Shown one piece after another: positions 20,141 through 23,575 of a stretch of 64,000 nt of DNA; position 1 is the stretch's first letter; every line of letters begins with the position of its first letter. The stretch lies in the NCBI RefSeq assembly GCF_009914755.1, contig NC_060927.1; one strand, 5' to 3'. This DNA is from the human T2T-CHM13v2.0 reference genome, Homo sapiens. The position numbers and the translations under genes were made by a program. Below the pieces are notes generated by a model that was given only the letters and a program-made list of their open reading frames with translations, searched no databases and was not told where the DNA came from.

Positions 20141-22393
20141 TTCTAGAATGGAGAGGAGTTTGGACAAGGCACTGAGGTCAATGTGTTCCTTAGTTTTGGC
20201 CTTCAAGAGGGATGATCTTTCTCCTTCACACTCTGAAGAGTGTGAAGCCACCCAAGGATGACCCCTTGCCCAATGCCCCTGAGAGTGACCAGAACAAAGA
20301 GTGATCAGGGGTCCCCATGGTGGTATACGAGGGACCTCAAGTGTGGCCGGGTTCTTGATGAAGTGCTCTGGTCCCCAATGGGGGTGCTGACCCCTTGGTA
20401 GGGGTATGGCTCAGGCTACAGCAGCAGGCTAAGTAGTGTCCGTGGGCATCCCCTTCCATACCAGGGCCTGGTGCTGCATCTGGCTGCCCCCCACCGACTC
20501 ATCAGAGCTGCCTGGGAGGCCCCCACTCCAGCCTTGGCCAGGAGCTTGTGGGCTGGGTGTGCAATGTGGGCAATGGAGGCCTCTGTCTCTTGCCTAGCAC
20601 ACCTGCCTTCGCCAGCACCCTCCCATCTACTGGGCCTGCACGCTCACCCAGAGCTCTGCCTGCTCTGCCAACAGGCCTCGCCCCCTTGGGAGGGGTCTGA
20701 GAAGGTTGGCCACCCTTGGATGATGGCTGCAATGGTGATTCTCACAGCTCACATTCCAGGACAGTCCACCACCATGTGCTGGGCACACACATAAGCTCTG
20801 AGATTCCATCTAATCCTCGCCACAGCCTCACCTATGAAGGGTGTGCTTGTATTATACCCATTTATGGATGAGAAACTGAGGCTCAGAGAGGGAGATGAGC
20901 TGCTTGGGTCTCAATGGGTAAATGGAGAGCTGGCCCCAAAGTGCGTGCCTACTTCCGTCCTGCCATTGCTTCTCCAGAAGCTGCCGTCAGGGAGACCATG
21001 GACACCCCTCAGCCCCTCTGAGCCCAGGGGAGGGAAGTTGAGGTGGCACTGCTGGGACAGGGTTCCTGAAGTCTTCATTTCACCACCAACTAGCTGCTGG
21101 CTTTCTATCTCCCAATCTCATCAAGCTTCCACTTTCATAAAACAGGATGAGACATTCACCTCCCAGAGTGTCCCAGTTACCTTCATCATAATCACTTGCA
21201 CGGTTCAGCCTTTTGCAGTTTCAAAGGGCTTTTGCAAGTGTCATCTCTTGTCAGTCTTCCCAGTATCCCTGCAAGGTGGGGCAGGAGGGATTTTCATCAC
21301 TCTCATTTTATAGATGGGGAAACTGAGGCCAAGGGAAGTTCAGAGGCAGCCTGAATTTAGGAGCATCCTCGGAATAGCCCCATGGCTGCAGGATTAGTTC
21401 ATCACTGTCACTGTGCCCACTTTCTGGGTGACTCAGAGGGGAGAAGTGGCTTCCCCGAACCTCGCCCAGCACTGTCTGTTCAAGGGTAAGTGCAGAGCTG
21501 TCCCCATGGCCTCCCATGGCAAAGGATCAGTTGCCCATCCTGGGCTTTAAAGTGAAAGACCCCCTGTGTCTCTACTGTAAAATTCTTTCTACTGGATTAA
21601 AAAACACAAGAGAAAAAAGCTTTTTAGAGTAAGCAGGAATGAATAACAACAATTATTTTTATTTTCTAAAATAATTTTACTGACTGGGCTCAGGGGCACC
21701 AGGGGACTCCACTTCAATAGTTGGTTTTAGAAGGCTCAAAGGGGCCTTTATTTGCATTGCATATTATCAGATGCAATAGCCGGTGTGTGCACTCATTAAG
21801 CCCAGCTAGCACTTTCCTCTTTTATTTCCAGAGTGAACACGTGATCAGAAAAATAATCACCAATGCATATGCTGGAGGAAGGGAAGGATGTTCTGGGAGT
21901 GCTGAGGCACAGATGGCCTGGTTTCTCAGAAGCGAGGGACTTATTTGGGGCTCTCCTGGCCAAACTGGTGCTCGCCTGGCCCTGAACTATGGTGGAACAG
22001 CCAGCTTTGGCCCCATGTGGGATCTGGAGATGGGCTGTATTTCAGGAGAGCTAGGAATGGGGTCCAAGACTGAGCCCTCAGGTGGGGTCTCAGAGGCCCT
22101 TCTCTGTATCTGGAGTCAGATGCACCTTTTCCAAATGGGTCTATTCTCTCTGTGCATCACAAAGGGCATGGGTGTGAAGTGCATGGATTGGGAGGATTCC
22201 TGGTAAGCTGACCTGATACACAAGCTCTGGGGAGAGAGACCACTACCTGGGAGACTTGGGAAATACCACTTCTCTTCCCTGTGCCTCCATTTTCTCCTCT
22301 GTGAAATGGATATCAACTAAGGTGATGTTTATGAAAGGCACTGGAAAATCACTGTGTAAACGTTGGGAGTTAGTAGTAATGTGTTATTATTAT

Positions 22394-22668
22394 TGTTGCC
22401 CAGGCTGGAGTGCAGTGGCGTGATCTTGGTTCACTGCAACGTTGAACTCCTGGGCTCAAGCAATCCTCCTACTTCAGCTTCCTGAGTTGCTGGGAATATA
22501 GATGTGTGCCACTATACCCAGCTAATTAAATTTTTTTTTTTTTTTTTTTGTAGAGATGTGGTCTCACTATGATGTCTAGGCTGGTCTCAAACTCTTGACC
22601 TCAAGTGATTCTCCTGCTTCGGCCTCCCAAAGTGTTGGGATTATAGGCATGAAGCACTGTACCCAGCC
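22394..22668 (-). mobile_element. AluJ-like element
   Basis: Diverged dimeric Alu with gaactcctgggctcaagcaatcctcc (J-type pattern). Confidence 0.9.
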
Positions 22669-22680
22669 CATGATGTATAA

Positions 22681-22999
<319 letters not shown>

Positions 23000-23299: not shown

Positions 23300-23575
23300 T
23301 CTCACCTGGAGTCTGGAAAGCCTGTTAAAATGCAGATTCTCCTTCAGTTGGTCTGGGGTGGGGTCTGAGATTCTGCATTTCTTTTTTTTTAATTTTTTAA
23401 TTTTAATTTTTATTTTATTATTATTATACTTTAAGTTTTAGGGTACGTGTGCACCCTAAAACTTAAAGTATAATAATAATAAAATAAAAAACTGAGATTC
23501 TGCATTTCTAAGGAGCTCCCAGGTGATGTGCAGGCTTTGGGTCCTGTGATCACATTTTGAATAGCAATGGCTTAG
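23300..23575. mobile_element. MER5A-like DNA transposon (host of the palindromic L1 insertion)
   Basis: tgttaaaatgcagattct...ggtctggggtggggtctgagattctgcatttcta...ctcccaggtgatg. Confidence 0.8.
23383..23491 (-). mobile_element. Ultra-short young L1PA 3'-end insertion with foldback inverted duplication and 18-bp TSD
   Basis: ttattatactttaagttttagggtac.tgtgcac is the antisense L1PA 3' terminus; its inverted copy follows. TSD ctgagattctgcatttct at 23365-23382 and 23492-23509. Confidence 0.9.

What the first reader, a model, noticed from the sequence alone, without database searches (positions are those of the whole stretch)
23365..23509. L1 3' tip folded back into a perfect 38-bp palindrome inside the PMCA2 site-A cassette
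Seen: 23407-23444 is the exact reverse complement of 23453-23490 (38/38), with an 8-nt loop. The whole insert sits between two copies of an 18-bp TSD, at a TT/AGAA site on the minus strand. Established: the arm is the extreme 3' end of a young primate L1 (CCCTAAAACTTAAAGTATAAT plus tail), and TT/AAAA-like sites are L1 endonuclease targets. Classical twin priming inverts a different, non-overlapping L1 segment; here the same segment, including part of the tail, is copied. Inference: the nascent cDNA end (...TGCAC) snapped back on GTAC and self-primed, making a hairpin de novo in one retrotransposition event. The result is an AU-rich dsRNA stem or DNA cruciform between the 60- and 42-nt alternative exons, a candidate ADAR/Microprocessor substrate or breakage site.
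Basis: partly seen in the sequence, partly recalled or inferred. Interest (0 to 1): 0.8.

Follow-up and report, generated by a model that had tools for sequence, protein, structure and literature searches.

The report
L1 tail-end insertion folded into hairpin
A tiny fragment of a LINE-1 jumping gene deep in an ATP2B2 intron carries a perfect 38-bp mirror copy of itself, most likely because the DNA copy folded back and primed on itself as it inserted; it is a rare structural curiosity with no sign of function.

Summary
There is a 38/38 inverted repeat with an 8-nt loop, 18/18 direct repeats flank the whole insert, and the cleavage site is L1-like (TTTCT/AA). The arms are the 3' tip of an L1: the 21-mer occurs 15,509 times in this genome.

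The best reading is one target-primed insertion whose first-strand cDNA (about 70 nt) folded back on a 2-nt microhomology. It copied about 38 nt of itself and then joined the upstream target. This "snap-back" 5' junction is already described for R2 retrotransposon insertions in human cells, so the mechanism is not new. I found no paper applying the term to native L1.

Eight motif scans of the genome (five L1 anchors) found seven such L1 fold-backs in all, each with a 7-9-nt loop. Two of the anchors gave none.

Twin priming and a later replication template switch are not excluded, because no ortholog data were available.

The hairpin lies 2.1 and 3.7 kb from the nearest exons. Nothing supports an editing, miRNA or fragility role. 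Interest is modest.

The parts
23365..23382 (.). Target-site duplication, left copy (CTGAGATTCTGCATTTCT). Its 3' end on the + strand (..TTTCT-3') is the inferred primer for first-strand cDNA.
   Evidence: D1, 18/18.
23383..23406 (-). A-rich tail of the L1 insert (minus-strand sense TTAAAATTAAAAAATTAAAAAAAA). It lies outside the palindrome.
   Evidence: Similar A/T patterns are common in retroposon tails.
23407..23444 (-). Arm L: the L1 3' tip in sense on the minus strand (ACCCTAAAACTTAAAGTATAATAATAATAAAATAAAAA). This is the RNA-templated part of the first-strand cDNA.
   Evidence: I1. The 21-mer occurs 15,509 times in the genome. Some other L1 3' ends match at 100%.
23445..23452 (-). Loop of 8 nt (minus-strand GCACACGT). 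It is the 5'-most L1 sequence of the insert (..GTGCACACGT|ACCC), i.e. the last bases copied from RNA before the fold-back.
   Evidence: The same GTGCACACGTACCC.. string occurs in 190 exact 27-mers in the genome.
23453..23490 (+). Arm R: an inverted copy of arm L (L1 sense on the + strand), inferred to be templated by the cDNA itself. The innermost AC/GT pair is the 2-nt microhomology at the fold-back point.
   Evidence: 38/38.
23491..23491 (.). One extra A between arm R and the right TSD. It has no partner in arm L (23406 is A), so it is untemplated or a junction base.
23492..23509 (.). Target-site duplication, right copy. It is followed by AA (23510-23511), the other half of the TTTCT/AA cleavage site.

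Best explanation
This is a single L1 target-primed reverse transcription (TPRT) event with a snap-back 5' junction.

Shown by the sequence: an L1-like nick at ..GCATTTCT/AA on the window's + strand, an A-rich tail next to that nick, an L1 3' tip, and 18-bp TSDs around everything.

Inferred steps:
1. The + strand 3'-OH primed cDNA on the A-rich end of an L1 RNA.
2. Synthesis ran only about 70 nt, to ..GGGTACGTGTGCAC-3'.
3. The terminal AC folded back and paired with the GT of GGGT, leaving 8 unpaired nt.
4. A polymerase (ORF2p itself or a host enzyme such as Pol theta; not decidable here) copied 38 nt of the cDNA.
5. That end, plus one extra A, was joined to the 3' overhang of the other target strand and copied it, creating the second TSD.
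6. Second-strand synthesis fixed the palindrome.

The product is a 109-bp insert that can form a 38-bp AT-rich (87% A+T) hairpin in DNA or in the ATP2B2 pre-mRNA. I regard it as a neutral by-product with no function.
For: Anatomy: 18/18 TSD, 38/38 arms and an 8-nt loop. The TTTCT/AA site and the tail sit next to the left TSD.

L1 identity: the tip 21-mer occurs 15,509 times against 0 in the reversed control. Other L1 3' ends are 100% identical over the arm plus loop.

The inverted arm lies wholly inside the direct segment and ends 1 nt from the TSD. That is what a fold-back before 5'-junction formation predicts.

Precedent:
- R2 insertions in human cells have a defined 'snap-back' 5'-junction class. 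The cDNA 3' end primes synthesis, most often on the cDNA itself, and then joins the upstream target (PMC11371274, passages; PMC11204384, passages).
- Inverted duplications at L1-induced breaks arise through a small hairpin with 2-bp microhomology (bioRxiv 10.1101/2024.12.14.628481, passages).
- A structure of snap-back synthesis by a related RT shows two 3' nucleotides annealing upstream (PMC11761039, passages).

Class: eight motif scans of the own genome, using five L1 anchors, found 7 distinct L1 fold-back loci including this one. Their loops are 8, 7, 8, 8, 8, 9 and 7 nt, although spacings of 0-30 or 0-60 nt between anchors were allowed. A second locus (L078) has a 17/18 TSD enclosing its composite.
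Against: - No orthologous or polymorphic empty site could be examined, so 'one event' is inferred and not shown.
- The junction between arm R and the TSD has no microhomology, and nothing explains why copying stopped after 38 nt.
- Clear TSDs enclose the composite at only 2 of the 7 loci. The rest break down as follows: L079 is AT-rich and ambiguous, L006 has only 6 bp seen by eye, L076 has none, L077 lies in tandem repeats, and L010 is an internal patch.
- L010 has the same 8-nt loop but sits inside a longer L1. The geometry is therefore not specific to 5' junctions and could also come from replication template switching.
- Two further anchor scans found nothing, so the class is rare and perhaps confined to the palindrome-rich last ~100 nt of L1.
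- All scans needed exact 12-16-mers in both arms and favour small loops by roughly two-fold.
Confidence: 0.62

Rival explanations
1. Twin priming on the A-rich 3' end. After second-strand cleavage, the other target strand's 3' end (..CTCAG-3') primed a second cDNA on the L1 RNA at the AAAAA run. That cDNA ran 38 nt to ACCC and was joined to the first cDNA through the 2-nt GT/AC overlap.
For: It gives the same final sequence. The overall layout (inverted 5' part, direct 3' part, one TSD pair) is that of 5'-inverted L1s. Twin priming is the standard model for these (review PMC10760644, passages, which also notes it lacks experimental validation).
Against: The inverted segment lies entirely within the direct segment. 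Two cDNAs would have had to copy the same 38 nt of RNA and stop 8 nt apart. There is no complementarity between ..CTCAG-3' and the A-rich priming site, and the arm has one more A than the template run. Independent stops should give a wide spread of spacings, yet all 7 fold-back loci have 7-9-nt loops. I could not read Ostertag & Kazazian 2001 (not held), so how much junction overlap they reported is unchecked.
Confidence: 0.15
2. Post-insertion replication template switch. An ordinary 5'-truncated L1 3' end inserted first. Later a replicating strand looped back on itself, copied 38 nt, and returned to the original template, replacing whatever lay between the L1 piece and the TSD.
For: Template-switch mutations create perfect hairpins in one step and are common in primates, with over 6,000 suitable hairpins reported (PMC10710096, abstract and passages; related papers seen only as a search listing). 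Locus L010 shows an internal inverted patch with the same 8-nt loop inside a longer L1, which fits this mechanism.
Against: The inverted arm ends 1 nt from the TSD, so the return point would have to coincide with the insert boundary by chance. L078 also has its inverted arm close to the TSD, 7 nt away.
Confidence: 0.13
3. Two independent L1 insertions in opposite orientation, or an assembly artefact.
For: L1 tips are very abundant (15,509 copies of the 21-mer).
Against: One 18/18 TSD pair encloses both arms, and there is no second TSD. The arms are identical over 38 nt, including the A/T-rich stretch. Only 3 head-to-head tip pairs with spacing of 60 nt or less exist in 3.1 Gb, and all have hairpin-size loops. 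The structure is 84 nt, far below read length in a telomere-to-telomere assembly (the assembly name comes from the hub's note).
Confidence: 0.03

Closest known systems
'Snap-back' 5' junctions of R2 (PRINT) non-LTR retrotransposon insertions in human cells (PMC11371274; PMC11204384)
   Same: The cDNA 3' end primes extra synthesis on the cDNA itself. Antisense insert sequence is then joined to the upstream target. It occurs on 5'-truncated insertions.
   Different: Those are engineered R2 insertions into rDNA in cultured cells, read from sequencing libraries. This is a fixed, endogenous L1 insertion at a TTTCT/AA site with an 18-bp TSD. Loop lengths and microhomologies for R2 were in figures and supplements I could not see.
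Twin-primed 5'-inverted L1 insertions (Ostertag & Kazazian 2001; known to me only through the review PMC10760644 and from recall)
   Same: An inverted 5' part and a direct, polyadenylated 3' part within one TSD pair, joined at a short microhomology.
   Different: In twin priming the inverted part comes from L1 sequence upstream of the direct part. Here it is a copy of the direct part itself, which gives a hairpin instead of an inversion.
Inverted duplications at L1-induced double-strand-break ends via small hairpins (bioRxiv 10.1101/2024.12.14.628481)
   Same: Self-annealing of a 3' end with 2-bp microhomology and a small hairpin, at a TPRT site.
   Different: There the duplicated material is flanking genomic DNA in cancer or induced-L1 clones. 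Here it is the L1 cDNA, in the germline.
Replication template-switch mutations that create hairpins or miRNAs (PMC10710096)
   Same: One-step creation of a perfect inverted repeat of a few tens of nt by an intrastrand loop-back.
   Different: Those arise during DNA replication at existing sequence and return to the original template. Here the arm ends at an insertion junction inside a TSD pair.

Membership tests
L1 (LINE-1) TPRT insertion | Sequence is an L1 3' end followed by an A-rich tail | tested here: met
   The 21-mer occurs 15,509 times in the own genome, control 0. Some other L1 3' ends match over arm plus loop at 100%. A 24-nt A-rich tail lies next to the left TSD.
L1 (LINE-1) TPRT insertion | Target-site duplication of about 7-20 bp flanking the insert (size range recalled) | tested here: met
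   18/18 direct repeat at 23365-23382 and 23492-23509.
L1 (LINE-1) TPRT insertion | Endonuclease site resembling 5'-TTTT/AA-3' on the primed strand (consensus recalled) | tested here: met
   The + strand reads ..GCATTTCT/AAGGAG, with one C in the T run.
Twin-primed 5'-inverted L1 | Inverted segment derives from L1 sequence 5' of the direct segment, roughly contiguous with it | tested here: not met
   The inverted arm (23453-23490) is the reverse complement of 23407-23444, which lies inside the direct segment. The direct segment extends 8 nt further 5' than the inverted one.
Twin-primed 5'-inverted L1 | Complementarity between the second target strand's 3' end and the internal priming site on L1 RNA | tested here: not met
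   The overhang ends ..CTCAG-3' and the priming site would be an A run. There is no match, plus one unpaired extra A.
Snap-back 5' junction of non-LTR retrotransposition | [quoted passage not shown] | tested here: met
   38/38 reverse complement starting 8 nt from the end of the direct L1 segment. Definition taken from PMC11371274.
Snap-back 5' junction of non-LTR retrotransposition | Antisense insert sequence is joined to the upstream target | tested here: met
   Arm R ends at 23490, there is one A, and the TSD copy starts at 23492.
Snap-back 5' junction of non-LTR retrotransposition | Arose in the same event as the insertion | not testable with these tools
   This needs primate orthologs or pangenome haplotypes, and no such collection was available.
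Replication template-switch mutation | The ancestral state at the locus lacks the inverted copy but has the surrounding sequence | not testable with these tools
   No outgroup sequence was available. The coincidence of the arm end with the TSD argues against it.
pri-miRNA / known RNA family | Reaches an Rfam gathering score | tested here: not met
   Best matches are MIR8562 at 44.7 bits against 211, and mir-586 at 39.3 against 89. All hairpin matches are far below threshold and occur on both strands.
pri-miRNA / known RNA family | Stem of about 35 bp with an apical loop of 10 nt or more (as stated in PMC10710096) | tested here: not met
   The stem is 38-40 bp, but the loop is 8 nt, or 4 nt in the RNA minimum-energy fold.

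The most novel reading that the evidence does not exclude
Germline L1 integration occasionally finishes by a stereotyped snap-back. The cDNA 3' end anneals by about 2 nt some 7-9 nt behind itself and is extended on the cDNA before joining the target. If this fixed geometry holds in a full census, it is a fingerprint of the polymerase that completes L1 5' junctions (ORF2p or Pol theta). It would also be a second one-step source of perfect hairpins inside genes, besides replication template switching. The ATP2B2 site would be its cleanest example.
Probability: 0.35. Interest if true: 0.5.

Novelty: new member of a known kind. Interest (0 to 1): 0.33.

Why it matters
How L1 completes its 5' junction and second strand is still unsettled; the review PMC10760644 notes that even twin priming lacks experimental validation. 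A fixed insertion that records a cDNA fold-back, plus six genomic look-alikes with the same loop size, gives a sequence signature. That signature could be counted in complete genomes and compared with de novo insertions in polymerase-deficient cells. For ATP2B2 itself nothing suggests a consequence, because the hairpin lies kilobases from the site-A exons.

Tried and rejected
- **Dating by the ACGT variant.** There are 190 exact 27-mers, but 15 alignable copies of 20 sampled fall on two L1 backgrounds with 8.2% mean pairwise difference. Five were dropped because their median distance exceeded 0.2, probably truncated copies aligned to flank. The variant does not define one lineage, so I rejected it as a clock.
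- **Dating by arm and TSD identity.** There are 0 differences in 56 paired nt. P(0) is 0.33-0.57 at 10 Myr and 0.04-0.19 at 30 Myr, for assumed rates of 0.5-1e-9 per site per year (rates recalled). This is too weak to date the insert.
- **A sibling from the same source.** L013 shares a TTAAAATTAA..AATTAAAAAAAA tail. The same pattern occurs in 24 places against 9 in the control, mostly Alu tails, and only 1 of 24 is a true L1PA tip. My pattern also missed this locus by one A. I rejected it as evidence.
- **Rfam.** Only sub-threshold generic hairpin matches.
- **Ostertag & Kazazian 2001.** Not held.
- **'ORF2p' with 'snap-back'.** 0 papers.
- **'LINE-1' + 'snap-back' + 'target-primed reverse transcription'.** 5 papers, 4 listed, all on R2 or group II intron-like RTs.
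- **Two extra anchor scans.** 0 loci.
- **Not possible with these tools.** Orthologs, pangenome haplotypes, RNA editing and small-RNA data could not be examined.

Full report
**What is there**

The window's + strand reads as follows:
- an 18-nt direct repeat CTGAGATTCTGCATTTCT at 23365-23382;
- a 24-nt T-rich run at 23383-23406;
- a 38-nt arm at 23407-23444;
- 8 nt, ACGTGTGC, at 23445-23452;
- the exact reverse complement of the arm at 23453-23490;
- one A at 23491;
- the 18-nt repeat again at 23492-23509, followed by AAGGAG.

The inverted repeat is 38/38 and the direct repeat is 18/18.

This cannot be chance. The minus-strand RNA folds at -52.2 kcal/mol against -13.3 +/- 2.9 for 200 shuffles, and 0 of 200 shuffles fold as well. 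The DNA strand folds at -34 kcal/mol, z -12.3. The L1 tip 16-mer occurs in the 64-kb window only at these two places.

**Identity**

Read on the minus strand, the insert is ..GTGCACACGT-ACCCTAAAACTTAAAGTATAATAATAATAAAATAAAAA-TTAAAATTAAAAAATTAAAAAAAA. The tip 21-mer occurs 15,509 times in the window's own 3.1-Gb genome and 0 times in the reversed control, so it is a very high-copy element's end.

A search with the whole 109-nt insert found only this locus spanning positions 1-109. All other matches covered either 1-72 or 71-109, meaning single L1 3' ends read on one strand or the other. The search had 552 candidates, scored 40 and reported 80 matches.

I read 16 of those copies: eight loci returned and eight more of its matches fetched. 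All 16 were therefore chosen for similarity.
- All 16 carry ..ACGTA-CCCTAAAACTTAAAGTA..
- All 16 carry AATAATAATAAAA after the tip.
- 15 of 16 continue with T and more A's.

Two unselected copies have a shorter AATAAAAA end. The A/T-rich outer half of the arm is therefore the element-encoded 3' end of some L1 lineages, not a private poly(A) tail. At most the last five A's of the arm, plus the extra A, are tail.

**Insertion signature**

The T-run, which is the tail on the minus strand, abuts the left TSD. So the + strand end ..GCATTTCT-3' was the primer, and the nick was TTTCT/AA. Tail, TSD and nick site together are the marks of L1 target-primed reverse transcription (features recalled from general knowledge; each was met here).

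**Mechanism**

The direct L1 segment runs 8 nt further 5' (GCACACGT) than the inverted copy. The two share a 2-nt overlap (AC/GT) at the inner end of the stem, and the inverted copy ends 1 nt from the TSD.

The simplest history is as follows. First-strand cDNA was made for about 70 nt. Its 3' AC then paired with the GT eight bases behind it. A polymerase extended it for 38 nt on the cDNA itself. The end then switched to the other target strand's overhang and produced the second TSD. Every step after priming is inference.

The same pathway has been described from sequencing of R2-based insertions in human cells as a 'snap-back' 5'-junction class:
- The template is 'most commonly the cDNA itself' (PMC11204384, passages).
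- A structure of snap-back synthesis by a group II intron-like RT shows two 3' nucleotides annealed upstream (PMC11761039, passages).
- The PRINT paper's reference list includes Pol theta end-joining work, which I have not read.

Which enzyme acted here cannot be told.

**Is it a class?**

I ran eight scans of the own genome for an L1 motif facing its own reverse complement, using five different L1 anchors.
- Tip anchors: 16-mers with gap 0-30 found 2 loci. 12-mers with gap 0-30 found the same 2. 12-mers with gap 31-60 found 1 more. Outer 13-mers with gap 14-44 found the same 2.
- A GTGCAC-region anchor found 2 loci, one of them new.
- A GGCACATG-region anchor found 3 loci.
- Two anchors further upstream found 0 and 0.

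That makes 7 distinct loci including this one. All reversed-pattern controls gave 0.

Dissected with one script, their loops are 8, 7, 8, 8, 8, 9 and 7 nt. Their arms are 38 (0 mismatches), 42 (3), 27 (0), 30 (2), 22 (0), 23 (0) and 54 (1).

The narrow loop range is the most interesting by-product, because independent priming events should not stop 7-9 nt apart. There are several caveats:
- The scans need exact motifs in both arms.
- They favour short loops by about two-fold.
- I do not know how many L1 copies carry each anchor.
- One locus (L010) is an inverted patch inside a longer L1, not a 5' junction.
- L076's loop looks like a further L1-tip fragment.
- L077 sits beside tandem repeats.

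TSDs enclosing the composite are clear at 2 of 7 loci: this one at 18/18 and L078 at 17/18. L079 is ambiguous at 11/12 and AT-rich. L006 shows only 6 bp by eye. None is found at L076.

**Rivals**

Twin priming on the A-rich end would give the same sequence. It requires two cDNAs over the same 38 nt of RNA, a primer (..CTCAG-3') with no match to the site, and a coincidental 8-nt offset. I could not read the original twin-priming paper, only a review's summary.

A later replication template switch is a documented one-step source of perfect hairpins (PMC10710096, abstract and passages). It fits L010, but here it needs the return point to coincide with the insert boundary.

Two independent insertions, or an artefact, are very unlikely given the single TSD pair and the identical arms.

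**Age**

The age could not be determined. The ACGT variant occurs as 190 exact 27-mers, on two L1 backgrounds. Fifteen alignable copies of 20 sampled differ by 8.2% on average, with five dropped as unalignable. This argues against a very recent lineage but does not date this insert.

Zero differences in 56 paired nt is compatible with anything up to roughly 20-30 Myr (rates assumed). 'Young' is therefore unproven. My guess, from recalled L1PA ages, is that the insert is shared with other apes.

**Function**

The insert is 2,091 nt downstream (in the transcript's direction) of the 60-nt exon and 3,747 nt upstream of the 42-nt exon.

All Rfam matches over the hairpin are generic AU-rich miRNA-precursor models at a fifth to a half of their gathering scores, on both strands.

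The stem length suits a pri-miRNA, but the loop is below the 10 nt or more quoted in PMC10710096.

A perfect 38-bp AU-rich duplex in a brain-expressed pre-mRNA could be edited by ADAR, and a perfect AT-rich palindrome could in principle extrude. Both statements rest on general knowledge and neither was tested here.

**Verdict**

The snap-back reading is the best one, at about 0.6, and it has direct precedent in another non-LTR element. So this is a new (L1, germline) member of a known kind, not a new mechanism. The functional suggestions are unsupported.

Noticed in passing
window 23328-23341 versus 23367-23380 (and 23494-23507): The target site was already one arm of an older inverted repeat (AAATGCAGATTCTC / GAGATTCTGCATTT, 14 nt, 93%, 25-nt spacer). 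The L1 therefore landed inside a pre-existing palindromic repeat of unidentified family. There are weak sub-threshold Rfam matches to mir-544 and mir-1289 there.
   Followed up: no
window 22374-22988: Four minus-strand matches to the SRP RNA model, plus sub-threshold mir-3135, mir-1268 and mir-1285 matches. This looks like two Alu elements about 400 nt from the insert and coincides with the masked stretch 22378-22994.
   Followed up: no
L006 1480-1570 (G000:C2:103792081-103792171): A second short L1 3'-tip hairpin with the same layout as the finding: 42-nt arms with 3 mismatches, a 7-nt loop, and a TT/AAGATT-like site with only a 6-bp repeat seen by eye. It is probably an older event.
   Followed up: partly
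L078 1498-1552 (G000:C2:77493906-77493960): An L1 3' end of about 90 nt with a 23-nt perfect inverted arm, a 9-nt loop, and a 17/18 TSD (ATAAAATGTCAYAAACCA) enclosing the whole. Seven extra nt lie between the TSD and the arm.
   Followed up: partly
L010 1500-1561 (G000:C11:81391701-81391762): Inside a longer L1, about 10 nt of normal sequence is replaced by a 27-nt inverted copy of the downstream L1 tip region, with an 8-nt loop. This is a two-jump template switch, either by RT or in replication, and not a 5' junction.
   Followed up: partly
L076 1491-1558 and L077 around 1380-1500: L076's 8-nt loop (ACCCTAGA) looks like a further fragment of the L1 tip, which hints at more than one switch. 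L077's inverted arm is preceded by tandem repeats of about 40 nt built from L1-like GTATACATATGT pieces.
   Followed up: no
L013 (G000:C11:58335145-58335225): An ordinary L1 3' end whose tail shares the TTAAAATTAA..AATTAAAAAAAA pattern with the finding's tail. The same pattern is frequent in Alu tails, so common descent is not established.
   Followed up: yes
five L1 3'-UTR anchors, own genome: All seven fold-back loci lie in the last ~130 nt of L1, a stretch dense in short self-complementary motifs (ACATGT, GTGCAC, GTATAC, CATATG). Two anchors further upstream gave none. Local palindromes may favour snap-back, but the denominators are unknown.
   Followed up: partly
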